In this document: one piece after another, positions 1,050 to 61,746 of the stretch
Layout of the letters: the number at the start of each line of letters is the position of its first letter
Numbering within the stretch: position 1 is the stretch's first letter
Assembly (NCBI RefSeq): GCF_028368995.1
Contig: NZ_JAQNDL010000005.1
Span: forward strand, 256,001-320,000
From: Nannocystis bainbridge
GTDB lineage: Bacteria > Myxococcota_A > Polyangia > Nannocystales > Nannocystaceae
Length of the DNA stretch: 64,000 bases
Direction of reading: 5' to 3'
The notes under the pieces: generated by a model
What the model saw: only the letters and a program-made list of their open reading frames with translations
What the model was told of the DNA's origin: nothing
The model's database searches: none
Program-made: the position numbers and the translations under genes

Positions 1050-1337
1050 CCGCCCGCGTGAAGAGGTCGTCGACCCGCAAGCACCGCACAGCCACGGTCG
1101 AGGTCGCTCTGGAACCGACCTGTCCCTTCCGCCAGCCCCACGCCCGCGCCGAACGAGGGTCCGCGCGCGCCCGGGCCGAATCGCCTCGCTCGGCAATGTA
1201 CACACCTGTCCCACAGGACACATGATCCTCGCGCGGCCGCGCGCCACCGCCGAGCCCGGCCCGTCCTCCGCCGCCGCCGTGTGCAGCCGTTTACGCGTCT
1301 TCTCAGCGCCCGCGGATGCGGCTGAAATGACCGGACT

Positions 1338-3062
1338 ATGCGCCTCGCCGCCCCTGCCTCCGCCCTGGCCTTGCTCGGACTCGTCCTCCTGCCCGCGTGC
1401 GGCGACGACCAGCCGGCGACGACCGAGAGCACCAGCGACACCGCCGGCACCAGCGAGACGACCACCGAAGACGCGACCGCGACCGCGCCGACCACTGAAG
1501 GGCCGACCTCGACCACCGTCGCGCCGACTACCACCACCCCCGGCACGACCACCGAGGCGGTGACCAGCACCACCGACGGCACCGCGACGGACGGCACCGA
1601 CACCGACACCACCACCGGTGAGCCCGTCGCGCTGTGCGAGCGGCTCGGCGGCGAGGCCGGCGTCGGCGAGCTCGTCGACGCCGCGCTGGCCGTCGTGCTG
1701 AGCGACGACAAGGTCAACGGCTACTTCCTTAACAGCGACGTCGACGGCGGCAACCTCCGCACCTGTCTGATCAAGCAGCTCGGTCAGGTCGCCGGCTGTC
1801 CCGGCGTCGAGTACGACTGCCTCGACATGAAGACCGCTCATGCCGGCATGGGCATCTCGGCCGCCGACTTCATGGACTTCGCGCTCGACTTCTCGACCGC
1901 GCTCGACACCCACCAGGCCGCCCACCCCGACCTCGGCGACGCCGACAAGACCGCCATCCTCGACGTCCTCGGCGGCCTCGCGCCCGACATCGTCGAGGAC
2001 GCCAGCAACGACGCCACCGTCTACCAGCGCGTCGGTCGCAAGCCGGCGATCGAGACCCTCGTCGGCGCGCCCGGCCAGGCCGGCTCGTTCGTCGACAACG
2101 TCGCCAACGACGCCGTCATCAACGGCTTCTTCGGCGGCACCGACTTCGAGCGCCTCAACACCTGTCTCACGCGCCAGGTCGGCGGCATCGACGGGCCCAC
2201 CAAGTACGGCCTCGAGGTCGACGCCCCTGACGGCGTCGATCCGGGCGTCGGCGTCGGCAACGAGTGTCAGACCATGGCCGTCAGCCACGCCGGCCTGGTC
2301 GACGCCGACGACAACGTCGGCATCGACATCAACGACTTCGGGGCCCTCGTCACCGATCTCGTCACCGCCATGGAGGCCGCCGGCGTCGCCCAGACCGACC
2401 AGGAGGCGATCCTCGCCGTGCTCGGGCCGATGTGCGAGGACATCCTCGCGCCCGAGTTCAAGAACCAGTGCCCCGGCGCCAACAAGGTCGAGACGCTCGA
2501 GGCCGTGAACCTCGCCATGCCGATCCCCGACGACGGCTACGACGGCTCGCTCGCCAGCATGGCCTGCGCGATGTTCGAAGCGCCCGACGACGGCATCAAC
2601 TTCATCGCCGGGGTGGAGGTCAGCATCGCCGCCGATCACACCTACGTCGGCGACCTCATCATCAAGCTCCAGGGCCCCGACGGCACCGTCACCACCATCC
2701 TCAGCCGCCCCGGCCTCGCCGAGCCGCTCGACGGTCAGGGCGCCTGCTGCGGCGACAACTCCAACATCGTCCAGTCGTCGCCGCTGCTGTTCAAGAACGG
2801 CGGGCTCACCGACGCCGAGCTGCTCGGCGCCGGCGTGCCCGACACCAACGACGTCGTGTGCGTCGACGAGCCCCAGCCCATCACCTGCGAGTTCCACCCC
2901 AACCCCGGCGCCGGCCCCGGCATGGACCTCGACGATTTCCTCGGCCTGGCCGCGAAGGGCTCGTGGCGCGTGTGTGTGGGCGACGCCGGCGGCGGGGACA
3001 CGGGCACCCTGCACGGCGTCACCCTCGTGATCGAGAAGGTCAAGTTCGACCCGACGCCCTGA
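1338..3062 (+). CDS. Lipoprotein with two group I truncated haemoglobin domains and a C-terminal proprotein-convertase P-domain
   Basis: Lipobox LPAC and Thr-rich linker; LCERLGG...MKTAHAGMGIS and VYQRVGRK...MAVSHAGL globin signatures; HTYVGDLIIKLQGPDGT...GSWRVCVGD P-domain pattern. Confidence 0.82.
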   Translation: MRLAAPASALALLGLVLLPACGDDQPATTESTSDTAGTSETTTEDATATAPTTEGPTSTTVAPTTTTPGTTTEAVTSTTDGTATDGTDTDTTTGEPVALCERLGGEAGVGELVDAALAVVLSDDKVNGYFLNSDVDGGNLRTCLIKQLGQVAGCPGVEYDCLDMKTAHAGMGISAADFMDFALDFSTALDTHQAAHPDLGDADKTAILDVLGGLAPDIVEDASNDATVYQRVGRKPAIETLVGAPGQAGSFVDNVANDAVINGFFGGTDFERLNTCLTRQVGGIDGPTKYGLEVDAPDGVDPGVGVGNECQTMAVSHAGLVDADDNVGIDINDFGALVTDLVTAMEAAGVAQTDQEAILAVLGPMCEDILAPEFKNQCPGANKVETLEAVNLAMPIPDDGYDGSLASMACAMFEAPDDGINFIAGVEVSIAADHTYVGDLIIKLQGPDGTVTTILSRPGLAEPLDGQGACCGDNSNIVQSSPLLFKNGGLTDAELLGAGVPDTNDVVCVDEPQPITCEFHPNPGAGPGMDLDDFLGLAAKGSWRVCVGDAGGGDTGTLHGVTLVIEKVKFDPTP

Positions 3063-3183
3063 GCCGCGCCACCATGCACGGCGCTGGCGAAGCCGCGCGC
3101 GACCGCTCGCCGCGAACGCCCGCGCTCGCAAAGGCACCGCCCGCGGGCTTGACGACCGCCGCGCAGCCCGCTGTCCTGGGCGA

Positions 3184-4662
3184 ATGATCCCGCTGCGCAC
3201 GCGCCTCGACCTCGCCCCGCTGTTCGTCGCGCTCGGATGGCTGGCGGCCTGCGGCCCGACCAAGGGCGAGACCGAAGCGACCGGCGAGACCACCCAGACC
3301 ACCCAGACCGGCACGACCACCGGCGGCACCACGACGCCGACCACCGGCGAGCCCGTCGCGTGCACCGGCGCGCTGACGCCGTTGATGCAGGCCCACGTCG
3401 AGCCGCCGGCGCCGTCGGGCTACGTGCGCTGCGACGACGGCCTGGTCCACCGGGCCGAGAAGCTCGAGTGCCTGGTGCCCGCGGTCCCCTCGAATTGCCC
3501 GGCCGACGCCTCACCCGGCGAGTGCTTCAGCAATGACGACTGCACCGAGCTGCCCTTCGGGTCCTGTCGCGAGGCGGTCATCCTCGGCGGTCTGGCCGCC
3601 ACCGAGACCGGCGGCACCGGCCCGTCGTGCGCCTGCGAGTACGGCTGCCGCACCGACACCGACTGTCCCGAGGGACAGATCTGCCGCTGCGCCGGCGACG
3701 AGCTCGGCTCGTTCGCCCGCTGCATCGCCGCCGACTGCACCGTCGATGCCGACTGCCCCGGCCAGCTGTGCGCCGTCACCTCGCGCGCATGCTCCGACGG
3801 CCTGATCCGCGCCGCCTGCACCACGCCGCAGGACGAGTGCGCCGGCCCGGCCGACTGCGGCGGCAACCTGTGCGTGCTCAAGGACAGCCGGTGGGCCTGC
3901 AACAACGTCGACTGCGGCCGCCCCTTCATCGTCGACGCCGAGCGGGTGCAGGCGCCGGCGATCGGGCGTGACGACTGGCGCGGCCTGGTCGCCGCCCCCA
4001 CGGCCGCTCCGGCCCTGCGCGCCCGCCTGCGCGACCACTGGACCGCGATCGCCCTGGCCGAGCACGCGTCGATCGCCTCGTTCGCGGCGTTCGTGCTGCA
4101 GCTGCTGGCCGTGGGCGCCCCGCCGGCGCTGGTGAGCGACGCCCAGCGCGCGCTGGCCGACGAGATCGAGCACGCGCGGATCGCCTTCGCGCTGGCCAGC
4201 CTGTACGAAGGGACAGGTATCGGCCCGGGCCCGCTGGCGATCGGTCGGCCTCGCCTCGCGGGCGACGTCGACGCGGTGGTCGCCGCCGTGATCGCCGAGG
4301 CGTGCGTCGCCGAGACGCTCGCCGGGCTCGAGCTGCGCGAGGCCGCGGCCCACGCCGTGGACCCGGCCCTGGCCCGCACGCTGGCGCGGATCGCCGCCGA
4401 CGAGGCGCGCCACGCCGAGCTCGGCTGGCGCTTCGTCCAGTGGGCCCTCGCCGAGGCCGGCGCCGATCGTCAGCGCGCCGAAGCCTGCTTCGCCGCGGCC
4501 GTGGCCGACGCAGAGTCTGTTCTTCAGGACATGTCCCAAAGCCCAGGCTCTCCCGAGCTCCGCGGTCACGGCGTCGTCGACCCCCCGCTGCGCGCCGCGG
4601 TGTGGCGCCGCGGACTCGCCGACCTGGTGCGGCCGACGGCCGCGAGGCTGTGCGCGGCCTGA
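3184..4662 (+). CDS. Cys-rich lipoprotein with C-terminal ferritin-like domain
   Basis: Lipobox LAAC, repeated CxxDxDC units, then CGRPF and EHASIASF / DEIEHA / DEARHA di-iron-type ExxH motifs. Confidence 0.82.
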   Translation: MIPLRTRLDLAPLFVALGWLAACGPTKGETEATGETTQTTQTGTTTGGTTTPTTGEPVACTGALTPLMQAHVEPPAPSGYVRCDDGLVHRAEKLECLVPAVPSNCPADASPGECFSNDDCTELPFGSCREAVILGGLAATETGGTGPSCACEYGCRTDTDCPEGQICRCAGDELGSFARCIAADCTVDADCPGQLCAVTSRACSDGLIRAACTTPQDECAGPADCGGNLCVLKDSRWACNNVDCGRPFIVDAERVQAPAIGRDDWRGLVAAPTAAPALRARLRDHWTAIALAEHASIASFAAFVLQLLAVGAPPALVSDAQRALADEIEHARIAFALASLYEGTGIGPGPLAIGRPRLAGDVDAVVAAVIAEACVAETLAGLELREAAAHAVDPALARTLARIAADEARHAELGWRFVQWALAEAGADRQRAEACFAAAVADAESVLQDMSQSPGSPELRGHGVVDPPLRAAVWRRGLADLVRPTAARLCAA

Positions 4663-9632: not shown

Positions 9633-9739
9633 TCGATCGGGATCGCAGCGCCGGTCCGCGTCCTGACATGACCTGTCCCTCGGGACATGCGCTCCCGCCC
9701 TTCGGACGATCGGCTCGCGCTCTGCTACCCTCCCCTCCC

Positions 9740-11000: not shown

Positions 11001-11311
11001 CGATCGCGCCGCCCTACTCGTCGGCTGCGGCTTCCCGGACCCAACCCCTTCTTCGCGACCGCGCGCCGACGACCTCTAACAATTTTTTTCACGCCCCCGG
11101 GAAGATGCCGCCTGCCCGGCGTTGACCCGGCGAACCAGGACGCCGCCCCGCCGACCGCCGTGTCGCCAGCCGGCCGACCCTTGCGCGCTCGCACAGCAGC
11201 GCCGCGTACGACCTCGACCCGCGCCTGTGCGCGGCGTTCGGCGGCCGCCGGGGAACGTGTCCCTTTCACCATGTCCCATACAACATGTCCAAAAGACCAC
11301 GAGCTATCGTC

Positions 11312-24865: not shown

Positions 24866-24959
24866 CCGCATGCCCCTTCGGTCATGCCTTCAAGAACATG
24901 ACCGTGAGAACATGTCCCCGAGAACATTACTACAAGAACATGTCCTCACGGACATGTCT
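24866..24959. repeat. 14-bp-period TGTCC-N4-GGACA lattice (7 nodes)
   Basis: CATG (one CATT) at 24869, 24883, 24897, 24911, 24925, 24939 and 24953; overlaps the kinase-WD40 stop codon. Confidence 0.92.
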
Positions 24960-27900
24960 TCACATACAGCCGGTCGCCGAAGTCGTGCGCCCACTCGGCC
25001 GGCGTCAGGTCGCGACCTGCCCGCGCGCAGGCCTCGGCCAGGCGGCCTGCCAGCGTCGCCGGGAACACCCGCGCCAGCCCGTCGGCGCCCGCCGTCACCA
25101 CCAGCGCCCCGTCGCTCGAGAACCCTCCCGACCACAGCCTGCGATCGTGCTCGCCGGGCCCTGCCGCTGGCGTATGCGGCAGTCGCAGCGCCACCAGCCC
25201 CTCCGGGCGGCGCGACCACAGGCGCGCCGAGCCATCGGCCGACGCCGTCAGGATCGCCGCGCCGTCGGGGCTGTACGCCGCGATCCACACCGCGTCCGTG
25301 TGCCCGCGCAGCGTCACCGGCTCCCCGCCGTCGAGCGGCCACTCGCAGGCCGTCCCGTCCGTCGAGGCCGTCAGCGCCGCCAGCCCGTCGGGCCGCAGCT
25401 GGACCTGACCTATCGACCCCGCGTGGCCGCGCAGCACGATCGGCGCCGCCTCGGGCCGGGCCAGCGACCACACCCGCGCCACCGCGTCGTCGCCCGCGCT
25501 GGCCAGCAGCTCGCCGTCGACCGCCAGCGCCCGCACCGGGCCCGCGTGGCCTTGCAGGCTGGCCTTGCGGACCGTCGCCCCGGCCAGCGGCGTCACCCGC
25601 ACCGGCCCGTCGTCGCCGGCGCTGGCGACGGCTGTCCCATCGGACATGAACTGAAGCACCCGCACCGCCCCCGCGTGGGCGGCCACCTCGTCGAGGCTGG
25701 GCGGCCCGACCGGCGGGAAGCGGACCACGTGGACCCGGCCGTCCTCGCCGGCGACCGCCGCCAGCTCGCCCGCGGGGCTCCAGCGGGCGTCGAGGAGCGC
25801 CGCCCCGCGCGGCGCCGTGAGGCTGGCCAAAAGGACAGGTTCGGCCCCGCTCAGCGACCACAGGCGCAGCCGCCCGTCGCTGCCCACCGTCAGCAGCCGC
25901 GCGCCGTCGGGGCTGGCCGCCAGCGCCGTCGAGGCCCCCTCGCGGTGGCCGCCCAGCCGCGTCGAAGCCCGGCCGTCGCGCGGCCACACCCGCGCCGCGC
26001 CGTCGAGCCCGGCGGTCACCACCGTGCGCCCGTCGGCCAGGAACGCGGCCTGCTCGATCGCCGCCGCGTGCCCGCGCAACAGCCACGGATCGTCCGCGAT
26101 CCGCCAGCGGCGCGCGCTGCCGTCGACCGACGCCGTCAGCACCCGGGCGCCGTCGCGCGAGAAGCTGGCCGCCACCACGCTGCCGGCGTGGCCGCGCAGG
26201 CGCAGCGGCGGGCCGCGCACGCCCGGCTGCCACAGCCACGCCTCGCCGCCCGCGGGGGTCCCGAGCAGCAGATCGCCCGCCGGCCCGACCTGGACCCCCA
26301 GCAGCGCCTCCTCGTGGCCCTGCAGCTCGATCCGCGCGCTGCTGCCGTCGCGCTGCCACACCCGCGCGCTGCCGTCCCGCGACACCGTCACCACCTGCTG
26401 CCCGCCGGGCCGGTACGCCGCCGCGTAGACCTCGTCGGTGTGCCCCACCAGCCGCTGCGGCGGCCCGCCGTCGACCGGCACCAGCGCCGCCGTGTGATCG
26501 GCGCGCGCGACCACGATCTCCTGCCCGTCCCCGCGCCACGTCGCCGCCAGCAGCCCCGTCGCCCCGCGAGCGGCCGGCGGCGGCAGCTTGAGCGCGCGCG
26601 CCGGACCGGCCGCCGCGGGCCACAGCCGCGCCGTCCCGTCGCCGCTCAGCGTCAGCAGCGTCGCCCCGTCGGGGCTCCACAGCGCCCGCCGCAGCGGGTC
26701 GCTCGCCTCGCCCAGCGGCTGCGGCGGCTGCCCCGGGCGCAGCACGTGCACCCGCGGCCCGTCGCGCACGACCAGCGCCTCACCTGTCCCCCAGGCCAGG
26801 TCGCGCGGATCGGTCGTCGGCAGCTCCCAGCACGTCGGCGCCCCCAGCCCGCCGACCGGCGTCAGCGCGTGCACGCACGGCCGATCGCCGGCGCGCGCGA
26901 TCGCCAGCGCCGCCCCGCCCGGCGCGAACGCCAGGGCCCGCGCGCTGCCTGTCCCCAAGGCCACGTCGAGCGGGGCCCGCGGCGCCGCCGTCGACCACAG
27001 CGCCACCGCCCCCTCGCGCTCCCCGGTGGCCAGCCAGCGCCCGTCGTCGCTCTCGGCCAGAGCGTCGACCACCCCCCCGCCCGGGCGGGCGAACCGGTCG
27101 CTGCGCGGCCCGTCGAGCGCGTCGAGCAGCGCCTGCTCCACCTCGAGCGGCGGCGCCTCCCCGCGCGCCTGCGCCGTCGCCACCGCCGCCACCGCCAGCA
27201 GCTGCCGCAGCGCCGGATCGGCGCCCGCCTGTTGACCCGCCGCCGCCGCCAGCCGCCGCGCCTCCCCGGCCGCCTGCGTGCGCGCGTCCTCGGCCGCGAT
27301 CGCGGCCGCCCGCACCTCCTCCGCCGCCGCGTCGGCCGCGTGGCGCTCCGCGAGCTGCTGCCAGGTCACCAGCGCCCCGCCGAACAGCGCCGCCAGGGTC
27401 ACCAGCCACAGCCCCAGCCGCCGGCGCAGCCGGCTCGGGTCGCGGCCGAGCGCCTCCAGCAGCGCGTCCATGCTCGGCCAGCGCGCGGCCGGATCGGCCT
27501 GCAGCCCGCGCTCGACCGCCCGCTGCAGCCAGCCCGGCACCTCGCGTGCGCCGCGGACGATCGCCCCGGCCACGATCGCCGCCTGCACCTCCTCGCGCCG
27601 CTCGCCCGCGAACGGCCGCACCCCGTGCAGCGCCTCCTGCAGCGCCGCGCAGAACCCGAACACGTCGCTGCGCGCGTCGCCCTCGCCGCCCGCGTGCTGC
27701 TCCGGCGCCACCGCCGTCGGCGCCGCGACCGCGTCGCCCGGCCGATCGGTCTTGATCGACATGCCCATACGGACATGTTCTTTGGGACCTTCCCCTTCGG
27801 GCATGCTCTGCGGGACAGACGCAGCGCGGACCCGGGCCAGCCCGAAGTCGACCACCCGCGCCCGGCCGTCGTCGCCGACCAGCACGCTCTCGGGCTTGAA

Positions 27901-35033: not shown

Positions 35034-35505
35034 TACATCGGTTATGCCAGCCGCGACCGTTCGTGGGAAGCCGTCGCGAGTGTCTCACACTGTATGTATT
35101 TCGTGCCGGAGAGCGAATGTCTCCACGTGGCGGGTCTGCGCTGAGGGTCGCCTCGATGCGAGCGCAATCGCGGTCGTCTGCGACAGGTCGCAATGTCGTC
35201 ACTCTCACCACGTTCAAGCGGCGGTCCAGAGGCCACAGTCGCTGCTTGCTCACGAGAATCATCAAGAGAGGGTCACGCCGTCCCCGGGCTGCGCCCGAGT
35301 CGAACGAGGGCGTCCCGCTCCTTCAACGAACTGTCATCCATCGAGTACGGGCGGCGTCCCGGGTCCTCGCATGCGCGCCCGGGATCGCCCGTCGCGGGGC
35401 GGTCGTGGGCTCGGCGTCGCCCCCGCTGCCGCTACCTGTCCCCGCGGACATATGTGCATTGTCGTGGGCCAGAACGGCCGCGACGTGCATGCGACCCGTC
35501 GCTCG

Positions 35506-37644: not shown

Positions 37645-38079
37645 GACCCTTCGAACAGGTGTTCTTCGCCGCATCATCCGTCACTCCTCGCCCTGACACC
37701 TCGCGTGCCCCATGGTCTCGTCGCCCGCGAGCGAGCGCTGGCGCCGAGGACATGTCCCTTCGGACAGGTGATCGCCGCGGCGTCACCCGCCCCTCCCGGG
37801 CATGGCGTCGGCCGAGCAACCGCGACGATGGCAGGCCGCTGCATTCCGCCGCTTCACACCGACCCAATGGGAGCCACGCCTCGAGCTCCCTCCCGTCACG
37901 CGCGACCACCCCGGCACTCTACCTCAGTTCGCCGCCGACCACCGCTCGCTCGAGATGTCGAGCCGTCTTGCCGTGCGTGGTCGGTCAGGAGGTCGAGACG
38001 CCGTTGCTCCGCGAGCCCGCCGTCGATCGGCACAGACACGCCGGAGCGGGCGCCCGGCGGGCGATCGCCGTACCGCCGC

Positions 38080-47949: not shown

Positions 47950-48125
47950 GGACTTGCCCCATCGGGCATGTCCCATGGTGCATGTCTTGGAGAGCATGTC
48001 GCTCCGAACATGCTCTAGAGCGCATGTCCCCGGGGACATGCGCTCTATCCGGCTCCGACCCTTCGACGCCATCGGCCCACACTCGTGCGACAAGCGCCTT
48101 CGAGCATGCCTTTAAAAGCATGCTC
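47950..48125. repeat. 14-bp lattice (7 nodes plus a 2-node satellite) between convergent genes
   Basis: Nodes at 47953 (CTTG), 47967, 47981, 47995, 48009, 48023 and 48037; then 48105 and 48119. Confidence 0.92.
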
Positions 48126-48136
48126 TTAGGGGCAGC

Positions 48137-49160: not shown

Positions 49161-49211
49161 CCTCGCGCCTGCGGCCTCGCGCGGCCGGCATCGCGCGCTC
49201 GTGCCGGGGAG

Positions 49212-49288
49212 CGACATGCTTCTCGGGACATGCCTCATCGGGCATGTCCTCATGCGCATGACCACACGGGCATGTCCAAACGGACACC
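49212..49288. repeat. 14-bp lattice (6 nodes)
   Basis: CATG at 49215, 49229, 49243, 49257 and 49271; CACC at 49285. Confidence 0.92.
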
Positions 49289-50805: not shown

Positions 50806-50807
50806 TC

Positions 50808-50884
50808 GCGCATGCCCTTCAGGACATGTCCGTTCGCGCATGCTCATGAGGACATGCTCCATCGAGCATGTCCCCATGGACATC
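50808..50884. repeat. 14-bp lattice (6 nodes) filling a convergent intergenic gap
   Basis: CATG at 50811, 50825, 50839, 50853 and 50867; CATC at 50881. Confidence 0.92.
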
Positions 50885-50889
50885 CCGCC

Positions 50890-53658: not shown

Positions 53659-54005
53659 GGCTCAGGCGGCCACGCGCGGCCGAACTTCGCGGCCCGCGGT
53701 GTTGACGCGACCGCACGCGCCCCTCGGCGCCCGCGGCTCGCGGAGTTGACGCGGCCGCCCCCACTGGCTCAGGCGACCTCGCGCGACCGATCCACGCGGT
53801 GTCGACGCGAGCCCACGCGACCCGCGGCTCGCGGAGTGGCCGCCCACGCGGGCTCAGGCGGCCATGCGCGGCCGCGATGTCGAAACAACCGCTCGAGACC
53901 GCGGCTCCCGGAGTGGCCGCCACGCGGGCTCAGGCGGCCACGCGCGGCCGCGGTGTCGACGCGAGCGCACCCGGCCCGCGGCTCGTGGTTGACGCGGCCG
54001 CCCCG
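53659..54005. repeat. Degenerate 76-107-bp tandem repeat (4 units)
   Basis: GGCTCAGGCG at 53659, 53766, 53851 and 53927, each followed by CGCG(G/A)TGTYGA... and CCGCGGCTC. Confidence 0.8.
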
Positions 54006-54026
54006 GTGCGCTTGGCTCACCGCGTG

Positions 54027-54503: not shown

Positions 54504-54536
54504 CAGGCTCAGAAGCGGCCATCGTCGCGCGGCGCA

Positions 54537-54602
54537 CCGCATGTCCTCGCGAACATGTCCTCCTGGACATGGACATCGGGACCTGCTCGCTCGAACATGT
54601 CC
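54537..54602. repeat. 14-bp lattice (5 nodes) between convergent genes
   Basis: Nodes at 54540, 54554, 54568, 54582 (CCTG) and 54596. Confidence 0.9.
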
Positions 54603-54682
54603 CGAGGTCACCAGCGCCAGCGCTCGAGATCGCGGCTCACGCCCGCCCGCGCGTGCTCCAGGCCGGGCGCTCCCGAGCCGCC

Positions 54683-56218
54683 CTACCCTGACGCGTGGAC
54701 CTGCAGCTCGCCCACGCCCTGGTACGTCCCGTAGAGCGTCGGCGACGTGAAGATCCGGACCGCGTAGGTCCCCTTCGCCAGCGGCCCGCACGACACCGCC
54801 ACGTCGCGCGTCCCGGTGACCTCGCACTCGACCGCCGCCGCGCTGTCCTCCGGGACAGCCTTGACGATCAGGTTGCGGCCGCGCGGGTTGTCGAGGCTCA
54901 GCGTGAACTCGCGCTGCACCGTCACCTGCGAGCGGCGGGGCTCGACCAGCTGCAGGCCGTCGGCGAAGAACTTGGGCCGCATCATCGGCTGGCGGGCGAA
55001 CTCGCCGCGGGACAGCGGCTGCTCGCGCAGCTGCCAGGCCGGCTCCTCCGGGAAATGCGTCACCCCGATCAGCGCCGGCGGCACGAACAAATAGTCGGAG
55101 CGGTACTCGCGGACGAACGCGCCGTCCTTGAGGTGACCCGAGTCCCACGTGGCGTCGATGAGGTACCAGCGGCCGTCGATGCGCGCGGCGTTCCACGCGT
55201 GCGACTCGCCCTCGACCTCGCGCGACAGCCCGCGCGCGTCGCCGACGACGACCACCACCTCGTCGCCGGTGACCGCCGCGATCGCCCGCATCAGGTTGGC
55301 GTAGCCGGCACACACGGCCAGGCGCGCGGCGAACACCGCCTCGGCGCGCTGGTCGGGGTAGACGTCGCGGTTCAGGTACGACGCGGCGTCGTAGGCGAGG
55401 TGGGTGGCGACGAAGTCGTGGATAGCCTTGATCCGGCGCGCCGGGTCGGGCTCGCTGGCGGCGAGGTGACGGCCGACGGTGTCGATGCTGGTGCGCGCCG
55501 CGTCGGGCATCGCCAGCACCGCCGGGTGGAGCTCCGCCGGCGACGGCCATGCCGGGCCATTCACCGCGACCACGGGCTCGCTCGCGGGCGCGGGCTCGAC
55601 CTCCGGCGTCGGCGTCGGCTCGGCGCCCGTGGGCACGGGCGTCGGCTGCGGCGGCCGCTGCCACGGGTCACGCCACGCGTCGTCCTCGGCGGGCGCCGGC
55701 TGCGGCGCCGGAGCCTCGGCCGGCCGGGTCTCGATCAGCCCCTCGTACTCGTTGTCGTGGGCCGCCTCGTACAGCCACTGCAGGCCGTCGGCCGCCCGCA
55801 GCAGCCCGGCGCGGGCGCGGCCCGTCAGCGGGTGCTGCACGCCCTCGAGGAACCAATCGCCGCGCGTCGAGATCGCCGTGAACACCGCCTCGGGCCGCGA
55901 CCACAGCAGCGCCGTCAAGAACGCCAGGTTGACCACCAGCGTGCGCAGCACGATCCGGTCCCACGTCGTCAGCACCCGCCGGTCGCGCTGCGAGCCCCGG
56001 CGCAGCAGCCGGGACAACATGTCCCAAGCGACAGGTACGATCGGGAACAGCAGCAGGCCCGCGACGCACACCAGCCACACCGGCCCGTTGCGGTAGGCCG
56101 CCAGCGACGAGGCGACCCACACCCCGAGGGCCGGCGCCACCACCACCACGGCCGCCCAGATCGCGCGAAGAAGCCAGAATAACAACGTTCCGAGCCAGCT
56201 CAGCCGCGCACGCGTCAT
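54683..56218 (-). CDS. Membrane-anchored transglutaminase-like domain protein
   Basis: N-terminal TM helices; VCAGYA, SHAWNA and IDATWD Cys-His-Asp triad. Confidence 0.9.
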   Translation of the reverse strand: MTRARLSWLGTLLFWLLRAIWAAVVVVAPALGVWVASSLAAYRNGPVWLVCVAGLLLFPIVPVAWDMLSRLLRRGSQRDRRVLTTWDRIVLRTLVVNLAFLTALLWSRPEAVFTAISTRGDWFLEGVQHPLTGRARAGLLRAADGLQWLYEAAHDNEYEGLIETRPAEAPAPQPAPAEDDAWRDPWQRPPQPTPVPTGAEPTPTPEVEPAPASEPVVAVNGPAWPSPAELHPAVLAMPDAARTSIDTVGRHLAASEPDPARRIKAIHDFVATHLAYDAASYLNRDVYPDQRAEAVFAARLAVCAGYANLMRAIAAVTGDEVVVVVGDARGLSREVEGESHAWNAARIDGRWYLIDATWDSGHLKDGAFVREYRSDYLFVPPALIGVTHFPEEPAWQLREQPLSRGEFARQPMMRPKFFADGLQLVEPRRSQVTVQREFTLSLDNPRGRNLIVKAVPEDSAAAVECEVTGTRDVAVSCGPLAKGTYAVRIFTSPTLYGTYQGVGELQVHASG

Positions 56219-56370
56219 CCTGGCCGAGCCTAGCACGGCGCCGGCGGCCGCGCCGTCCCTGGCGCAGCGGAGCGGCCTGCGCCGGTGGGGCGCGCGCGCT
56301 CACGGGAGCGAAGGGACGCGCGACACGACCCTCGCTACATTCGACGATTCAGCGCACCGCGACGCGCAGC

Positions 56371-56976: not shown

Positions 56977-59097
56977 TCATCGGCCAGGTGATGCCGGCGC
57001 GATGACGACCTCGGCCTTGAGGATGCGGTCGCCGACCACCAGCGCCAGGGCGGCCGGCAGGCCGTCGCGGACCTCGCCGACGTGGGTGTAGCGGCCGTCG
57101 AGGTGCGGGGCGCGGGCGTGCATGATGAAGAATTGACTGCCGCCGGTGTCCTTGCCGGCGTCGGCGATGCCCACGGCGCCGCGCGCGAATGGAGCGGCGC
57201 CTGGCTCCGAGGGCAGGGTGAACCCCGGACCGCCCCAGCCGGTGCCGCCGGGGTCGCCGCCCTGGACGACGTAGCCGGGCACGACGCGATGGAACGTCAG
57301 GCCGTCGTAGAAGCCGCGCTGGGTCAACGCGACGATCGCCGCCACGTGCCACGGCGCGGCCGCGGGCGCGAGCGCCACGTCGACGCGGCCGCGCTCGGTG
57401 TGCAGCCGCCACAGCAGTTCACGGCCGAGCACCGGCGACGGATCGTGCAGCGGCAGCGGGACTTCGCGGCCGGGCCCGTTGACGCCGGGATCTTCGCCGG
57501 CGATCGCCTTCACGCAGGCGCGGGCCGCCGCGCGCACGCTGGCGTTCACGTCGGTGAGCGCGGCGCGACAGACCGGCAGCCCGCGCGCCCCGCCGACCTC
57601 GGCCAGCGCGCCCGCGAGGCCGGCGAACAGCTCGCCGTCGCGTTCGCCCGCGGCCCGCTCGACCAGCGCGTCGACGATCGCCGGCGCCTCCGGCCGCGGC
57701 GCGTCGCCGGCGAAGCGCCCCTGGACCGCCTCGGCCGCGGTGCCCACGACCGCCGGCGAGCTGTCCCGAAGGCCAGCCGCGATCAGGCCGCCGAGTTCGA
57801 GCGCGTCCCACTGCCGACCCGCCGCCGCCAGCGTGGCCGCCCGCACCCGCGGATCGTCGCTGGCCGCCAGCGCCGTCAGTCGGGCCGCCCGCGCCGGCCC
57901 GCCGAAGCCCTGGCCGAGCAGACCTGCCTCGAAGGCCAGCCGCTCGAGGTCCGCCGCCGCCCCGACCGCCTCGGCGCAGCGCAGCGGCGGCCGCCACTCG
58001 CCCGCGCGGGCCGCCAGCGCCGCCAGCCCGCACGCCAGCCGCGCCTGCACCCGCCGCGCCTCCGGCCGCGCCGCCGCCAGCCGGGCCTCGGCGCGCGCGT
58101 GGGCCTCGGCGGCCCCGGGCAGGACGTCCTTGCCGGCTGTCACGATGGACATGGCCTCGAGGACAGGGTGTCCAGAACCTGTCCCATCGAACATGTCCTT
58201 TTGTTCAAGCTCGGCGCGCAGCCAGTCCCACAGCGCCGCGGTCGCGGCCGGCTCGGCCAGCTCGCCGAGACCGCGGACCGCCGCCACCCGCACCCACGGA
58301 TCGGCGTCGCCGAGGCCCGCGCGCAGGGCCGCCAGCGCCTGCGGGGGCCGGTGCCGGGCCAGGCCCTTCAGCGCCAGCGCCCGCACCTCGGGCTCGGCCG
58401 CCGCGGCCGCACGCACCAGCGCCGCCGCGCCCGGGTCGATCGCCGCCTCGCGCACCGGCGCTGCTACCTCTGCGTCGGGCTTCGCCGCGGGCGCGTGGGC
58501 CAGCCCGTAGACCGCCGCGTAGACCCGCCGCGGATCGCCCTCGCCCGCCATCGCCACCAGCCCGGCGCGGGCCGCCTCATCGAGCGGCAGCCCGCGCCGA
58601 CCGAGGATCCCCAGCACGATCGCCGCCGCCTCGCGCACCGCCGGCGCCTCCTCGGGTCGCAGCGCCGCGGCCAGGCGCGCGCTCGCGGCCCCGCTGCCGA
58701 GCCGCCGCATCGCCAGCACGATCGCCAATCGCTCGTCCGCCCCCGCCGCCGGCCACCGCTGCCACACGGCGTCCTCGAACCGCGCCACCTCGGACCCGAG
58801 CGCCCCGGCGACGTCGAGCGCGCGCATGGCCGCCGCCCGCGTGGCCGCGTCGGGGCTCGCCAGCAGCGCGTCGAGCCGCGTCAGCGCGACCGCGTCGCCG
58901 ATCCGCCCGAGCCCCTCGATCGCCGCCGGGTTCGCCTCCGTGGCCAGCCGCGCCAGCTCGGCCGAGCCGCCCTCGCGCCGCGCCTCGAGGCGAGCGAGCG
59001 CGAGGCCCGGATCGTCGCCGCCGTCCGGCGGTCCCGACGGCCGCGCGCACCCGGCCACCAGCGCGATCGACAGCAGGAAGGAGCGCGGAGCCAGCAT
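56977..59097 (-). CDS. HEAT-repeat lipoprotein with cyclophilin-type PPIase
   Basis: Lipobox VAGC; GFYDGLTFHRVVPGYVVQGGDP, GKDTGGSQFFI, PHLDGRYT. Confidence 0.93.
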   Translation of the reverse strand: MLAPRSFLLSIALVAGCARPSGPPDGGDDPGLALARLEARREGGSAELARLATEANPAAIEGLGRIGDAVALTRLDALLASPDAATRAAAMRALDVAGALGSEVARFEDAVWQRWPAAGADERLAIVLAMRRLGSGAASARLAAALRPEEAPAVREAAAIVLGILGRRGLPLDEAARAGLVAMAGEGDPRRVYAAVYGLAHAPAAKPDAEVAAPVREAAIDPGAAALVRAAAAAEPEVRALALKGLARHRPPQALAALRAGLGDADPWVRVAAVRGLGELAEPAATAALWDWLRAELEQKDMFDGTGSGHPVLEAMSIVTAGKDVLPGAAEAHARAEARLAAARPEARRVQARLACGLAALAARAGEWRPPLRCAEAVGAAADLERLAFEAGLLGQGFGGPARAARLTALAASDDPRVRAATLAAAGRQWDALELGGLIAAGLRDSSPAVVGTAAEAVQGRFAGDAPRPEAPAIVDALVERAAGERDGELFAGLAGALAEVGGARGLPVCRAALTDVNASVRAAARACVKAIAGEDPGVNGPGREVPLPLHDPSPVLGRELLWRLHTERGRVDVALAPAAAPWHVAAIVALTQRGFYDGLTFHRVVPGYVVQGGDPGGTGWGGPGFTLPSEPGAAPFARGAVGIADAGKDTGGSQFFIMHARAPHLDGRYTHVGEVRDGLPAALALVVGDRILKAEVVIAPASPGR
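58147..58209. repeat. 14-bp lattice inside the HEAT/PPIase CDS
   Basis: Nodes at 58150 CATG, 58164 CAGG, 58178 CCTG, 58192 CATG and 58206 CAAG; locally AT-richer codons. Confidence 0.8.
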
Positions 59098-59703: not shown

Positions 59704-59818
59704 GGTCGAACTCCTGGGTAAGGCGAGTGAAGCCGCGATCGTACGGCACGGCTCCGCCGCTCACCAGGCCCGCGTCGAATGACATGTCCTTGAGGACATG
59801 TCCCTCGCGCCAGGGGCC

Positions 59819-60127
59819 TCAGATCCCCATGCGCGACAGCGCGTCGACCACCGACTCGATCGCGGTCGCGACCTGCGGGTGGTCGACCTCGAATTGCCGG
59901 GCCGAAGCGCGCAGTTGATCGACCGTCTCGACGTCGGCGAGCGTCGCCACCGGCCGCGTCGCCAGCTCGCCGCGGTGATGGGCCTCGAGGCGGTCGGCGA
60001 TCTCGCGCAGCGTCTGCGACAACATCCCGCGCACCTCGGGATCGGCGGTCGACACCGTCTCGAGCTCCTGATGCAAATGTGTAAGGGTCTGGCGCAGTTG
60101 GTCCGAGTGACTCACATGGGGGACCAT
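59819..60127 (-). CDS. DUF4404-like small helical protein
   Basis: LRQTLTHLHQELE...FEVDHPQVATAIESVVDALSRMGI. Confidence 0.8.
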   Translation of the reverse strand: MVPHVSHSDQLRQTLTHLHQELETVSTADPEVRGMLSQTLREIADRLEAHHRGELATRPVATLADVETVDQLRASARQFEVDHPQVATAIESVVDALSRMGI

Positions 60128-60213
60128 AGAGGATCTTGGCGGGCTGACAAGCGGGCGCAGCCCGGCGGCTCTGGCTTCCAGCGGCGCGGTGACCGGCGTA
60201 CAGTCCCGGCTCG

Positions 60214-61662
60214 ATGCAGCAGCCAAGGATCAGCCGTCGGCGTCTGGCCGGCCTCTTCGTGTGGGCCGGCGCGGCCCATGCCCTCCCCGCCTGCGGTCAA
60301 GCCGCCCCTGCCGAGAAGCGCGTGCTCGTGCTCGGAGCGGGTCTCGCCGGCCTCTCTGCGGCCTGGGAGCTACAGCAGCTCGGCTACGAGGTCACCGTGC
60401 TCGAGGGCCGCGACCGCGTCGGCGGCCGCGTGTGGACCTTGCGCGAGGGCCTCGAGCAGGGCCAGTTCGCCGAGATCGGCGCGGTGCGGATCCCCGACGT
60501 GCACGAGCGGACCCTCGAGTACTGCGAGATGCTGGGCCTCGAGCTCGACGAGTACAAGGACGGCGCGCCGCTCTACTACATCGACGGCAAGACCTTCCTG
60601 CACGTCGAGGGCGAGCCGTGGCCGGTCGACGGCCTCACGGACGACGAGAAGGGCCTCGGCCTCGGCGACTACTGGACCCGCGAGATCGCGGCGACCTTCA
60701 CCGAGTTCGGCGACCCGCGCATCAACGGCTTCCCCAAGCCGGGCATCGTCGCAGAGTACGACGGCATGGTCTACGCCGATTTCCTGCGCATGAAGGGCAC
60801 CAGCGAGGCCTACCTCAAGCTCTACGCCGCCGACAACGGCTCCGAGATCAGCACCATCGGCACGCTGGCGTGGATGGGCGCCGAGGTGGCCGACAAGGAC
60901 TGGGGCGCGACCTATCACATCCGCGGCGGCAACGACCAGCTGACCGAGAAGCTCGCTGACGAGGTCGGGCGCGCCAACATCCAGCTCGGCAGCAAGGTCA
61001 CCAAGATCGAGCACGACGACGCCGGCGTGACGGTCACGTTCAGCGGGCCCGACGGCGAGGCCTCGCTGTCTGCCGATTACCTGGTGTGCGCGATCCCCTT
61101 CACCACCCTGCGCGACGTCACCATCGAGCCGGCCTTCTCCGCCGACAAGACGCGGGCGATCAAGGAGCTGTTCCTGATGAACGCCGGCCGCGGCTACATC
61201 CAGACCAAGACTCGCTTCTGGGAGAAGGACGGCATCGGCGGCCTCAAGATCGCCAAGACCGACGGCCCGGCCGAGCGCATCTGGAACCTCAGCGACGTCC
61301 AGCCCGAGGGCACGACGATGGGCGTGATCCAGTCGTACACCCAGAACCACAACGCCGACGCCTACTGCGGCGTCGCCCCGGCCGAGCGCGAGGAGTTCTG
61401 CCTCGCCGAGGTCGAGAAGTTCTTCCCCGACATCCGCGCCGAGAAGGTCGCCTTCTTCCACTACTGCTGGTCCGACGACCCGTGGGCCAAGGGCGCGTGG
61501 ACCGACATCCTGCCCGACCAGTGGTGGATCGTCGCCGCCACCCGCAAGCCCGAGGGCCGCGTCACCTTCGCCGGCGAGCACACCTCGGTGTGGGCCGGCT
61601 GGATGCAGGGCGCGATCGAGTCCGGCCAGCGCGCCGCCGACGAGATCGCGGCGATGGGCTGA
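60214..61662 (+). CDS. Flavin monoamine/L-amino acid oxidase family, predicted Tat lipoprotein
   Basis: SRRRL plus LPAC; GAGLAGL, EGRDRVGGR, FAGEHTS...MQGAIESG. Confidence 0.92.
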   Translation: MQQPRISRRRLAGLFVWAGAAHALPACGQAAPAEKRVLVLGAGLAGLSAAWELQQLGYEVTVLEGRDRVGGRVWTLREGLEQGQFAEIGAVRIPDVHERTLEYCEMLGLELDEYKDGAPLYYIDGKTFLHVEGEPWPVDGLTDDEKGLGLGDYWTREIAATFTEFGDPRINGFPKPGIVAEYDGMVYADFLRMKGTSEAYLKLYAADNGSEISTIGTLAWMGAEVADKDWGATYHIRGGNDQLTEKLADEVGRANIQLGSKVTKIEHDDAGVTVTFSGPDGEASLSADYLVCAIPFTTLRDVTIEPAFSADKTRAIKELFLMNAGRGYIQTKTRFWEKDGIGGLKIAKTDGPAERIWNLSDVQPEGTTMGVIQSYTQNHNADAYCGVAPAEREEFCLAEVEKFFPDIRAEKVAFFHYCWSDDPWAKGAWTDILPDQWWIVAATRKPEGRVTFAGEHTSVWAGWMQGAIESGQRAADEIAAMG

Positions 61663-61668
61663 GCTTCG

Positions 61669-61746
61669 GGGCATGTCCTGCAGGACATGCCCTCTCGGAC
61701 ATGCGTGAAGGGACATGCCCGACCGGGCATGTCCCTTTCGTCATGC
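61669..61746. repeat. 14-bp lattice (6 nodes) just after the oxidase stop
   Basis: CATG at 61672, 61686, 61700, 61714, 61728 and 61742. Confidence 0.93.

What the first reader, a model, noticed from the sequence alone, without database searches (positions are those of the whole stretch)
1207..61746. Dispersed 14-bp palindrome TGTCC-N4-GGACA forming exact 14-bp-period lattices: a candidate undescribed chromosome-wide protein-binding system
Seen: perfect copies start at 1207, 3664, 9674, 24941, 25633, 35437, 37753, 48025, 49273, 50869, 54556, 54844, 59785 and 61674. That is 14 by eye, against about 0.05 expected in 64 kb on my rough estimate at ~73% GC. Near-matches occur at 4202, 6896, 8431, 11272, 25824, 37644, 38613, 38766, 39144, 56020 and 57762. 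Units abut head to tail, giving GGACATGTCC junctions with CATG every 14 bp, in arrays of 5-7 nodes at 24869, 47953, 49215, 50811, 54540 and 61672. Arms and N4 cores differ between units while the spacing never slips, which is unlike slippage satellites or CRISPR arrays. Inference: a dimeric protein binds cooperatively. Three units span 42 bp, or 4 helical turns, so consecutive dimers would be rotated about 120 degrees around the helix. The density (one site every few kb, largely independent of promoters) fits nucleoid organisation (as with matS/SBS/NBS), self-marking or a REP-like role better than a regulon. From recall, the Verrucomicrobia LexA box TGTTC-N4-GAACA has the same geometry.
Basis: partly seen in the sequence, partly recalled or inferred. 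Interest (0 to 1): 0.9.

Follow-up and report, generated by a model that had tools for sequence, protein, structure and literature searches.

The report
Nannocystis 14-bp palindrome lattice repeats
A short DNA palindrome is repeated thousands of times across the chromosome of the soil bacterium Nannocystis, often in exactly spaced rows just behind genes, which looks like an undescribed docking system for a DNA-binding protein.

Summary
All 14 exact TGTCC-N4-GGACA copies are at the stated places (expected 0.04). The 11-Mb genome holds 1,987. CATG-CATG distances peak at 14 bp (3,736 pairs, background 70-300) with harmonics at 28-70 bp. There are 954 arrays of 3 or more units, mostly 4-6.

New facts:
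- Arrays sit just after stop codons: 37% of convergent gaps, 11% of tandem gaps, 2% of divergent gaps.
- About a third of exact palindromes lie inside ordinary coding sequence (658 versus 15-30 in protein-preserving shuffles). Their arms are conserved at synonymous sites.
- 77 arrays lie in frame inside genes.
- Arrays at different loci share no spacers, and no RAYT, Vsr or PadR gene was found.
- The lattice is essentially confined to Nannocystis among 185,579 species genomes.

Best reading (about 0.5): phase-locked binding sites for an unidentified dimeric DNA-binding protein, kept out of promoters and concentrated at gene ends. The main rival is a REP-like hairpin element. No paper found by my six relevant searches describes it. 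The mechanism is inferred and no partner protein was identified.

The parts
24866..24959 (.). Array of 7 units in 14-bp register. It overlaps the stop codon and last codons of the minus-strand kinase-WD40 gene 24946-28401.
   Evidence: Sequence and array call. Short arrays (2-4 exact CATG nodes at 14-bp steps; G007 has only two) stand at the same gene end in 5 of 5 congeners. Folds as RNA at -50.7 kcal/mol, z -6.2.
27757..27808 (.). In-frame array of 4 units inside the kinase domain of ORF 24946-28401 (minus strand). It encodes residues about 197-214, just after the DFGLAR motif.
   Evidence: GC3 is 0.98 upstream, 0.61 in the array and 0.97 downstream, all in the same frame. Pfam Pkinase covers residues 47-306. 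G010 keeps the array with CCTG cores.
47950..48043 (.). Array of 7 units. It starts 7 nt after the stop of the plus-strand histidine-kinase gene (46297-47943), in a convergent gap.
   Evidence: An array is present at the same place in 5 of 5 congeners. RNA fold -56.6 kcal/mol, z -5.8.
48104..48127 (.). Two-node mini-array (CATG, 14 bp, CATG) in the same convergent gap.
   Evidence: Sequence.
49212..49277 (.). Array of 5 units, 52 nt after the stop of the plus-strand DUF1579 gene (48489-49160).
   Evidence: RNA fold -39.7 kcal/mol, z -4.5.
50808..50887 (.). Array of 6 units that fills the convergent gap between the ankyrin-repeat ORF (50101-50805, plus strand) and the GH15 glucoamylase gene (50890-52722, minus strand).
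   Evidence: Anchored on the GH15 gene end, an array is present in 1 of 5 congeners (G007).
54537..54602 (.). Array of 5 units in the convergent gap between 53799-54503 (plus strand) and 54683-56236 (minus strand).
   Evidence: Anchored on the plus-strand gene, an array is present in 3 of 5 congeners and absent in G010 and G003. In the congeners the two flanking genes lie about 1.6-5.8 kb apart, from coordinates.
61669..61748 (.). Array of 6 units, 7 nt after the stop of the plus-strand amine-oxidase gene (60214-61662), in a tandem gap.
   Evidence: Present in 5 of 5 congeners with 3-6 of 6 CATG nodes kept and spacers changed. RNA fold -57.1 kcal/mol, z -5.7.
11254..11290 (.). Degenerate 14-bp-period array of 2.6 copies.
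   Evidence: Tandem Repeats Finder row with period 14. Two-mismatch palindrome at 11272.
58138..58193 (.). Three one-mismatch palindromes in register (58138, 58152, 58180) inside called ORF 56977-59097 (minus strand). A degenerate in-gene array.
   Evidence: for positions and for the ORF.
3664..3677 (.). Solo exact palindrome inside coding sequence (ORF 3184-4662, plus strand).
25633..25646 (.). Solo exact palindrome inside ORF 24946-28401 (minus strand).
   Evidence: Both arms are kept in 3 of 5 congeners.
54844..54857 (.). Solo exact palindrome inside ORF 54683-56236 (minus strand).
   Evidence: Both arms are kept in 5 of 5 congeners while the N4 spacer changes.
9674..9687 (.). Solo exact palindrome in called ORF 9422-10825, a weaker gene call with GC3 0.83.
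1207..1220 (.). Solo exact palindrome in the tandem gap after the gene ending at 1049.
35437..35450 (.). Solo exact palindrome 56 nt beyond the stop of minus-strand gene 35506-37677.
37753..37766 (.). Solo exact palindrome in a stretch where my caller found no gene.
59785..59798 (.). Exact palindrome with a CATG junction on each side, 21 nt beyond the stop of minus-strand gene 59819-60226.

Best explanation
This is a Nannocystis-specific, chromosome-wide family of docking sites for a two-fold-symmetric (dimeric), sequence-specific DNA-binding protein that has not been identified.

The elementary site is the 14-bp palindrome TGYCC-N4-GGRCA. Sites occur singly, also inside genes. They also occur as head-to-tail rows of mostly 3-7 sites in exact 14-bp register. 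In a row, neighbouring sites share a CATG junction, so neighbouring dimers would touch and bind cooperatively. Three sites span 42 bp, or four helical turns.

Selection keeps the rows out of promoter regions and concentrates them directly behind stop codons, above all between convergent genes. I propose that a protein-coated row there acts as a two-way boundary for transcription, as a roadblock, insulator or torsional barrier. The very stable hairpins that the same DNA forms once transcribed would add to this effect.

Shown: the word, the lattice, its placement, its conservation and its taxonomic restriction.
Inferred: the protein, the cooperative binding and the boundary function.
For: 1. Rigid geometry with free spacers. 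Half-site pairs are enriched only as inverted N4 (1,987 against 12.8 expected), everted N0 (956) and the 14/28-bp harmonics. All other spacings up to 30 stay at or below 49. The 5-mer itself is not enriched (12,351 against 10,251).
2. The whole row is phase-locked, not only hairpin partners. CATG pairs number 3,736 at lag 14, against 72 at lag 13 and 262 at lag 15. Array sizes show no even/odd preference: 3:204, 4:273, 5:244, 6:163, 7:53.
3. There is almost no compensatory pairing across the spacer: Watson-Crick 0.444 against 0.418, 0.595 against 0.568 and 0.572 against 0.574 expected. There is no sense-strand preference for stable RNA tetraloops: UUCG 28 against CGAA 33, GNRA 28 against complement 32. 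Spacer strand asymmetry is weak (chi-square 32 on 21 df).
4. The word is embedded in normal coding DNA. There are 658 in-ORF copies against 15-30 in 10 protein-preserving shuffles. They occur in all three frames with diverse peptides, and flanking GC3 is 0.92.
5. In situ conservation. At third codon positions of 17 in-ORF sites aligned to G010, arms match at 63/66, flanks at 119/151 (Fisher p 0.002) and the spacer at 0.556. In three orthologous arrays across five species, identity is 0.75 for cores, 0.55 for arms and 0.35 for spacers.
6. Every array is unique. Matches of at least 24/30 spacer-region positions number 120 observed against 81 expected from independent units. The only identical arrays lie in kb-scale duplicated segments.
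7. Promoter avoidance. Arrays are in 2% of divergent, 11% of tandem and 37% of convergent gaps. In tandem gaps the median is 26 nt from the stop against 292 nt to the next start.
8. Flanking genes are unrelated in function.
Against: - No candidate protein was found. PadR, whose published operator geometry fits, is not detectable in the genome. No gene stands out next to the longest arrays.
- The arrays would fold into very stable hairpins as RNA (-33 to -57 kcal/mol, z -2.7 to -6.2) and they sit where terminators and REPs sit. A structure-based role therefore explains the placement equally well.
- There is a small but significant excess of pairing at two of three stem positions (z 3.3 and 4.5). 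One position shows a sense-strand G.U bias (192 against 119, p 1.4e-4).
- Promoter avoidance alone could produce the 3'-end pile-up without any function at gene ends.
- The synonymous-site test rests on only 17 sites from one species pair. The array conservation figures come from a best-offset ungapped match, which inflates all classes.
- My gene calls are a home-made GC3 caller covering about 76% of the genome, with over-extended starts.
Confidence: 0.5

Rival explanations
1. REP/BIME-like hairpin elements. The selected entity would be the stem-loop formed by neighbouring units in RNA or in single-stranded DNA. It would serve as a two-way transcription terminator or a 3'-end mRNA stabiliser. 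The conserved stem sequence would reflect an unknown trans-acting enzyme that once spread the units.
For: - Placement is typical of REPs and terminators: right after stop codons, in 37% of convergent gaps.
- Predicted RNA hairpins are very stable.
- There is a slight excess of pairing across the spacer (z 3.3-4.5 at two positions) and a G.U-type sense bias at one position.
- Unit numbers change in whole units between species, including 42-nt steps inside genes, as slippage between self-complementary units would give.
Against: - No Y1/RAYT transposase was found in the genome (0 hits; the control rings in 6 of 14).
- There is no U-tract after arrays (9/304 downstream against 13/304 upstream), so they are not canonical intrinsic terminators.
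- Compensatory change is nearly absent, with mutual information of 0.008-0.013 bits at the stem positions.
- There is no tetraloop preference on the sense strand and no even/odd preference in unit number.
- The gap between successive hairpins is fixed as strictly as the loop.
- Hundreds of solo copies with only a 5-bp stem lie inside coding sequence and are conserved there.
- Only 2 of 102 tRNA genes have an array downstream.
Confidence: 0.27
2. A non-adaptive drive. The word would accumulate because some DNA-processing machinery favours it: an uptake-signal-like bias in transformation, biased mismatch repair or gene conversion, or repeated small insertions at CATG. It would have no function at the sites themselves.
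For: - The word is hyper-abundant in coding and non-coding DNA alike.
- It is genus-specific.
- It is rarer in low-GC, island-like bins (Spearman 0.37-0.46 with GC), as expected for a signature that builds up with residence time.
- From recall, Neisseria and Haemophilus uptake sequences also pile up as inverted pairs behind genes.
Against: - Vsr does not track the arrays: 0 hits in this genome and 1 of 10 congeners.
- A drive does not explain the exact register of rows, the near-exclusion from promoter gaps or the size cap near 6-7 units.
- Known uptake signals are single asymmetric words and not dyads (recall).
- Spacers are unique, so units are not copies of a master.
Confidence: 0.15
3. An ordinary transcription-factor regulon, such as a LexA-type or CRP/FNR-type box with 5-N4-5 geometry.
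For: The dyad geometry equals that of known 14-bp operators.
Against: - There are about 2,000 exact sites.
- Only 2% of divergent promoter gaps hold an array.
- Arrays follow stop codons.
- Neighbouring genes are functionally unrelated.
Confidence: 0.02

Closest known systems
REP/BIME elements of enterobacteria and pseudomonads (repetitive extragenic palindromes with RAYT transposases)
   Same: Both are short palindromic units in hundreds to thousands of copies. Both cluster behind genes and between convergent genes, are lineage-specific and can form hairpins. REP roles in mRNA stabilisation, termination and gyrase binding are recalled and not checked in a paper here.
   Different: - No RAYT gene was found.
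- Units stand in an exact 14-bp lattice with unique spacers.
- Many copies lie inside coding sequence, which REPs do not by definition.
HIP1, the highly iterated palindrome GCGATCGC of cyanobacteria (Xu, Lawrence and Durand 2018, PMC5861425; abstract read)
   Same: Both are hyper-abundant palindromes, strongly over-represented and conserved both within and between ORFs. The HIP1 authors argue for selection and a role in chromosome or nucleoid structure, and the function is unknown.
   Different: - HIP1 is a contiguous 8-mer with 10-90 kb periodicity. It has no abutting arrays and no 14-bp register.
- HIP1 is linked to cognate methyltransferases (abstract of PMC4390886, seen in the listing). 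I did not test methylation here.
- The Nannocystis word piles up at gene 3' ends.
Rickettsia palindromic elements (RPE)
   Same: Both are palindromic repeats that also sit in frame inside protein-coding genes and are translated. The RPE facts are recalled. only listed papers that mention RPEs.
   Different: RPEs are 100-150-bp copies that resemble one another. Here each array has its own spacers, and single 14-bp copies arose by substitution within normal coding sequence.
Tandem operator arrays read by cooperative dimers (MetJ met-boxes, Fur hexamer arrays, ParR/omega centromere repeats)
   Same: This is what the rows would work like: abutting short symmetric boxes in fixed register, 2-5 or more in a row, each bound by a dimer that contacts its neighbour (recall).
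   Different: Those arrays number a handful per genome and sit in promoters or plasmid centromeres. Here there are about 950 rows, nearly excluded from promoter gaps. No RHH, Fur or ParR link was tested.
DNA uptake sequences (DUS/USS) of Neisseriaceae and Pasteurellaceae
   Same: Both are genus-level 'dialect' words, abundant in coding and non-coding DNA, that often form inverted pairs behind genes (recall).
   Different: Uptake sequences are asymmetric single words without a lattice. No competence link was tested here.
PadR-family operators (ATGT/ACAT inverted motif with 8-10 nt spacer; PMC3506622, Discussion passages read)
   Same: Within arrays the dyad reads ATGT-N8-ACAT exactly (cATGTcc-N4-ggACATg).
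   Different: No PadR domain (PF03551) is detectable in this genome, while the control rings in 14 of 14. Site number and placement are not those of an operator.

Membership tests
REP/BIME (REP + RAYT) | A REP-associated tyrosine transposase (Y1_Tnp, PF01797) in the same genome | tested here: not met
   0 hits in G000 (90.5% complete). The same search rings in 6 of 14 control genomes.
REP/BIME (REP + RAYT) | Strictly extragenic location | tested here: not met
   658 exact palindromes inside ORFs against 15-30 in shuffles. 77 arrays lie mid-ORF in frame.
REP/BIME (REP + RAYT) | Clusters behind genes and between convergent genes | tested here: met
   Arrays are in 37% of convergent, 11% of tandem and 2% of divergent gaps. 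Median distance from the stop is 26 nt.
MITE | Copies similar to one another along their length, with terminal inverted repeats and target-site duplications | tested here: not met
   Spacer sharing between arrays is at chance level (120 against 81 for at least 24/30). Identical arrays occur only in kb-scale duplicated segments. Flanks show only decaying units. No clean empty site was found.
Canonical intrinsic terminator | GC-rich hairpin followed by a U-tract | tested here: not met
   The hairpins are stable. A T run of 4 or more within 25 nt downstream occurs in 9 of 304 arrays, against 13 of 304 upstream.
HIP-type hyper-abundant palindrome | Strong over-representation and conservation within and between ORFs | tested here: met
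   155-fold over expectation and about 30-fold over a codon shuffle. Third-position arm identity is 63/66 against 119/151 in flanks (small sample).
HIP-type hyper-abundant palindrome | A cognate orphan methyltransferase that recognises the core | not tested
   No methylome data and no methyltransferase specificity could be derived. Only Vsr was checked and it does not track the arrays.
CRISPR array | Repeats of 23-47 bp separated by spacers of similar length, next to cas genes | tested here: not met
   The units are 10 bp with 4-bp spacers, dispersed over about 950 loci.
Transcription-factor regulon (LexA-like 5-N4-5 box) | Sites in promoter regions of a functionally coherent gene set | tested here: not met
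   Only 2% of divergent gaps hold an array. Neighbouring genes are unrelated.
PadR operator | A PadR-family protein encoded in the genome | tested here: not met
   PF03551 gives 0 hits. The control rings in 14 of 14.
Known RNA family (Rfam) | A match at the gathering score | tested here: not met
   0 matches in the 64-kb window.
Nucleoid positioning sites (matS/SBS/NBS type) | Sites confined to or excluded from the ori or ter macrodomain | tested here: inconclusive
   Density is similar on both skew arms and across the two skew switches seen. The genome is in 5 contigs and ori/ter were not located.

The most novel reading that the evidence does not exclude
Nannocystis has evolved a sequence-programmed chromatin feature. 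A lineage-specific protein polymerises in 14-bp register on rows of palindromes that cap gene ends. This forms protein-based two-way transcription boundaries or torsional barriers at about 40% of convergent gene pairs. Single sites scattered through genes would act as low-affinity landing points. That would be a protein-roadblock alternative to intrinsic and Rho-dependent termination, written into the genome at about 1,000 places.
Probability: 0.22. Interest if true: 0.92.

Novelty: new variant of a known kind. Interest (0 to 1): 0.78.

Why it matters
Short dispersed repeats such as REP, BIME and HIP1 are abundant in bacteria and remain poorly understood. This family has properties that make the question testable.
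- Its geometry is rigid while its spacers are free, which separates recognition from copying.
- It occurs both as single sites in coding DNA and as rows at gene ends.
- It is present in one culturable genus (N. exedens, N. pusilla, N. punicea) and absent from sister genera, which gives a clean comparative contrast for finding the partner.

If a protein binds these rows, it would be a new kind of nucleoid or transcription-boundary system.

Practical consequences hold whatever the mechanism:
- The arrays mark transcription-unit ends.
- About 77 genes carry translated 14-residue-period inserts.
- The word is a diagnostic signature of Nannocystis DNA in metagenomes (62 of 66 hits among 185,579 species genomes).

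Tried and rejected
- Expression data: no RNA holder is listed. One search returned 5 metagenome rows with word shares of 0.06 or less. I did not lay reads.
- Rfam at gathering score on the window: 0 matches.
- RAYT (PF01797): 0 hits.
- Vsr (PF03852): 0 hits in this genome, 1 of 10 congeners and 1 of 14 other genomes. A canonical very-short-patch repair drive is dropped.
- PadR lead: the published geometry fits, but PF03551 gives 0 hits. Dropped.
- p53/NDT80 long shot, tried because GGRCATGYCC equals the p53 half-site consensus seen in the papers: PF00870 and PF05224 give 0 hits. Nothing rang in the controls either, so this is uninformative.
- Partner by neighbourhood: Pfam on 10 genes flanking the five longest arrays and 11 window genes gave nothing suggestive. 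I listed the 34 'divergent' arrays but did not pursue them, because many lie in gaps where my caller missed genes.
- Block transposition: rejected.
- Clean empty sites or target-site duplications: not found in the 4 array-less orthologous gaps examined. The gaps were too diverged.
- tRNA 3' ends: only 2 of 102 have an array within 150 nt.
- Earlier notes of this scan: three look-ups returned nothing.
- Literature: (and 61, 63 for analogues) found no description of this repeat. Only open-access full text is covered. Supplementary files were not consulted.
- One search stopped on a division error after printing 7 of the planned 14 examples, and I used the printed part.

Full report
**1.
In 100 dinucleotide-preserving shuffles the mean was 0.04 and the maximum 1. 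With one mismatch allowed there are 36 matches against 1.53 expected.

The six arrays were read directly. They consist of units GGRCATGYCC plus a 4-nt spacer, head to tail, so that CATG recurs every 14 bp.

The window is G000:C5:256001-320000, from an 11.05-Mb genome in 5 contigs at 71.5% GC. A conserved window protein has its closest relatives (87-89% identity) in records titled Nannocystis pusilla, N. exedens, N. punicea, N. radixulma and Nannocystis sp..

**2. It is a genome-wide lattice.**
The genome holds 1,987 exact palindromes. CATG-CATG distances number 3,736 at 14 bp, 2,073 at 28, 1,586 at 42, 751 at 56 and 383 at 70. The background is about 70-130, or about 250-320 at multiples of three.

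Chaining CATG nodes at steps of 14 or 28 bp gives 2,074 chains, of which 954 have three or more nodes. After extension with a position weight matrix the sizes are 3:204, 4:273, 5:244, 6:163, 7:53, 8:9, then single cases up to 20 units. So there is a cap near 6-7 units and no even/odd preference.

A spacing scan of the half-site shows that only one lattice is special:
- Inverted N4: 1,987, against 12.8 expected.
- Everted N0: 956.
- Everted N14: 638.
- Direct N9: 682 and 639.
- Inverted N18: 379.
- Every other spacing up to 30: at most 49.
The pentamer alone is not enriched (12,351 against 10,251).

**3. Where the elements sit.**
I built a GC3-based gene caller. It covers about 76% of the genome and over-extends starts. 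With it the 954 arrays fall as follows: 430 convergent, 304 tandem, 185 in called ORFs, 34 divergent and 1 at a contig edge.

Per gap of 40-1,000 nt, an array is present in 346 of 941 convergent gaps (37%), 234 of 2,199 tandem gaps (11%) and 20 of 827 divergent gaps (2%). In tandem gaps the array hugs the upstream stop. The median is 26 nt from the stop against 292 nt to the next called start, and 226 of 304 arrays are closer to the stop.

All six intergenic arrays of the window begin at or within about 52 nt of a stop codon, and one overlaps it. Their neighbours are unrelated: a histidine kinase, a DUF1579 protein, an ankyrin protein, a GH15 glucoamylase, a kinase-like P-loop protein, a transglutaminase-like protein, an amine oxidase, an MFS transporter and Ser/Thr kinases. 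This is not a regulon.

There is no U-tract after arrays: 9 of 304 downstream against 13 of 304 upstream. Only 2 of 102 tRNA genes have an array within 150 nt downstream. Density is similar on both skew arms and lower in low-GC bins (Spearman 0.37-0.46 with GC).

**4. The word also lives inside genes.**
Only 281 of the 1,987 exact palindromes are in arrays of three or more nodes. Another 1,018 are outside called ORFs and 688 inside.

The in-ORF copies use all three frames (392, 201, 80), encode diverse peptides and are spread evenly along ORFs. A shuffle that keeps every protein sequence and each gene's codon usage gives 15-30 copies against 658 observed.

Around 501 strictly mid-ORF copies, GC3 is about 0.92 and dips only from -24 to +30 nt. 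Only about 7% have a good neighbour site 14 bp away. These copies arose by substitution in ordinary coding sequence.

Separately, 77 arrays lie in frame within ORFs, at least 300 nt from the called start and at least 60 nt before the stop. In seven examples, GC3 is 0.92-0.99 upstream in five and downstream in five of the six measurable. Two ORFs read 0.75-0.76 upstream and one 0.89 downstream. Inside the array GC3 is only 0.44-0.69. Their translations are 14-residue-period peptides such as ...GHVPEDMSxGTGP....

One such array is in the window, at 27757-27808. It encodes residues about 197-214 of a Pkinase-WD40 protein, just after DFGLAR and inside the kinase domain.

**5. How the elements evolve.**
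*Taxonomic range.* A four-node pattern occurs in all 10 other genomes of the genus. The five 12-13-Mb genomes have 409-527 hits. The five small or fragmented ones have 1-13. It occurs in none of 14 other genera of the family and in none of 16 genomes of other families of the class. The reversed-pattern control is 0 everywhere. The small congeners carry the same unit type.

A stricter three-unit pattern, scanned over one genome for each of 185,579 species, gives 66 stretches. Of these, 62 are titled Nannocystis. Two are unnamed myxobacterial MAGs of the same type. Two are simple tandem repeats with identical units in an alphaproteobacterial MAG and a Nocardiopsis contig. There are none in 2.9 million viral contigs.

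*Orthologous loci.* An array (a short one at 24866; see part 1) stands at the same gene end in 5 of 5 large congeners for window arrays 47950, 61669 and 24866. The figure is 3 of 5 for 54537 and 1 of 5 for 50808. CATG nodes and the register are largely kept while spacers drift.

In a best-offset ungapped comparison of those three arrays across five species, identity is 285/380 for cores, 316/570 for arms and 112/320 for spacers, and 56 of 95 nodes are exact. The choice of best offset biases all classes upward.

In a 400-kb syntenic alignment with G010 (215 kb aligned, 87.7% identity), 16 arrays were evaluable. Nine have at least 3 nodes in the orthologous gap, three have 2 nodes and four have none.

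*Coding sequence.* Coding arrays are also kept, and G003 differs from the others by 42-nt steps (three units). Such steps preserve both the register and the reading frame.

For 17 in-ORF solo sites aligned to G010, third-codon-position identity is 63/66 in the arms, 119/151 in flanks (Fisher p 0.002) and 0.556 in the spacer. The motif is fully kept at 10 of 17 in-ORF sites and 4 of 10 non-ORF sites.

*No copy-and-paste.* Arrays at different loci do not share spacers: 120 matches of at least 24/30 against 81 expected from independent units. The four groups of identical arrays all lie in 2.3-3.1-kb segments duplicated at 99-100% identity near contig ends.

Adjacent units are barely more alike than units from different arrays: 0.446 against 0.424 identity, with 4.9-6.7% against 2.0% at or above 80% identity. 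There is therefore no sign of recent block transposition and little recent slippage.

**6. Structure or sequence?**
As RNA the six window arrays would fold at -33 to -57 kcal/mol, with z from -2.7 to -6.2. So an RNA-level effect behind genes is physically likely. Several results nonetheless indicate that the constraint is on sequence and register, not on pairing:
- Watson-Crick pairing across the spacer barely exceeds shuffles: 0.444 against 0.418, 0.595 against 0.568 and 0.572 against 0.574. Mutual information is about 0.01 bit.
- Only one of three stem positions shows a sense-strand G.U bias (192 against 119).
- UUCG and GNRA loops are not preferred on the sense strand (28 against 33 and 28 against 32).
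- The linker between would-be hairpins is fixed as strictly as the loop.
- Solo sites have only a 5-bp stem.

Internal nodes are exact CATG in about 90% of steps (2,733 steps of 14 bp against 286 of 28 bp). That is far more conservation than a stem needs.

**7. Mechanism.**
I favour a two-fold-symmetric protein that reads TGYCC-N4-GGRCA on duplex DNA and binds side by side on rows, at about 0.5. Under this reading, selection removes rows from promoters and keeps them at gene ends. There the coated DNA, helped by the transcript hairpins, would act as a two-way boundary. The protein, the cooperativity and the boundary role are inferences.

The main rival is a REP-like hairpin element (0.27). It explains the placement and the foldability. 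It does not explain the in-gene conserved solos, the full lattice, the missing covariation or the missing RAYT.

A non-adaptive drive (0.15) explains the abundance in coding DNA. It does not explain the register or the promoter avoidance, and Vsr does not track the arrays.

A regulon is excluded by placement.

**8. Comparison with the known, and novelty.**
The closest relatives in kind are REP/BIME, HIP1 (PMC5861425, abstract), Rickettsia palindromic elements (recall) and uptake sequences (recall). In mode of action, the closest are tandem operator arrays such as MetJ boxes (recall). Each membership test fails on at least one defining feature (see the membership table).

PadR operators have the right published geometry (PMC3506622, passages). 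But no PadR domain is detectable in this genome.

Full-text searches with the genus name, the motif strings and general repeat terms found no description of this family. GGACATGTCC appears in print only as the p53 half-site.

I rate it a new variant of the dispersed-palindrome kind, with an unprecedented exact lattice and an unknown partner. Limits of this analysis:
- The gene caller is home-made.
- There are no expression data.
- The samples for the conservation tests are small.
- No candidate protein was found.

Noticed in passing
window 27757-27808, within ORF 24946-28401 (minus strand): A 4-unit array is translated in frame inside the kinase domain of a Pkinase-WD40 protein, just after the DFGLAR motif in the activation-segment region. 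The protein may be a pseudokinase or may tolerate a loop insert.
   Followed up: partly
window 47985-50811 and 54503-54683: Gene content between arrays varies among species. The roughly 2.8 kb between arrays 47950 and 50808 is missing in G007, where one array serves both flanking genes. At the 54537 array the two flanking genes lie about 1.6-5.8 kb apart in the five congeners. Arrays may coincide with indel hot spots. This was not tested genome-wide.
   Followed up: partly
genome-wide: Within a unit the bases flanking CATG are anti-correlated. GCATGC and ACATGT are rarer and ACATGC/GCATGT commoner than independence predicts (Watson-Crick symmetry 0.366 against 0.433, z -10). Unexplained.
   Followed up: no
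genome-wide: Degenerate cores at skipped nodes are mostly transversion variants (CCTG 53, CATT 51, CAGG 43, AATG 38). The transition variants expected from GC-to-AT mutation pressure are fewer (CATA 20, TATG 18). In coding arrays CCTG/CAGG cores alternate with CATG.
   Followed up: no
G000:C3:1237915-1238181: This is the longest array, 20 units with unusually A/T-rich spacers. It lies upstream of a PLP-dependent enzyme gene and downstream of a 131-aa ORF with no Pfam match.
   Followed up: partly
window 28001-32000: A low-GC stretch (0.619 against about 0.72) in which my caller found no gene between 28401 and 31685. It has no exact palindrome. Possibly an island.
   Followed up: no
window 53795-53984 and 61872-61936: Two unrelated tandem repeats: a 76-bp unit in 2.5 copies (score 268) and an 18-bp unit in 3.7 copies (score 116). 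The second lies just downstream of array 61669.
   Followed up: no
G000 contig ends: C1 4.516-4.534 Mb, C2 about 0.8-2.1 kb and 3.023-3.031 Mb, C5 about 711-717 kb: Segments of 2-3 kb repeated at 99-100% identity, in both orientations, near several contig ends. These are probably the repeats that broke the assembly.
   Followed up: partly
G000 whole genome: No PadR-family domain (PF03551) is detectable in an 11-Mb genome, although the family rings in all 14 control genomes.
   Followed up: no
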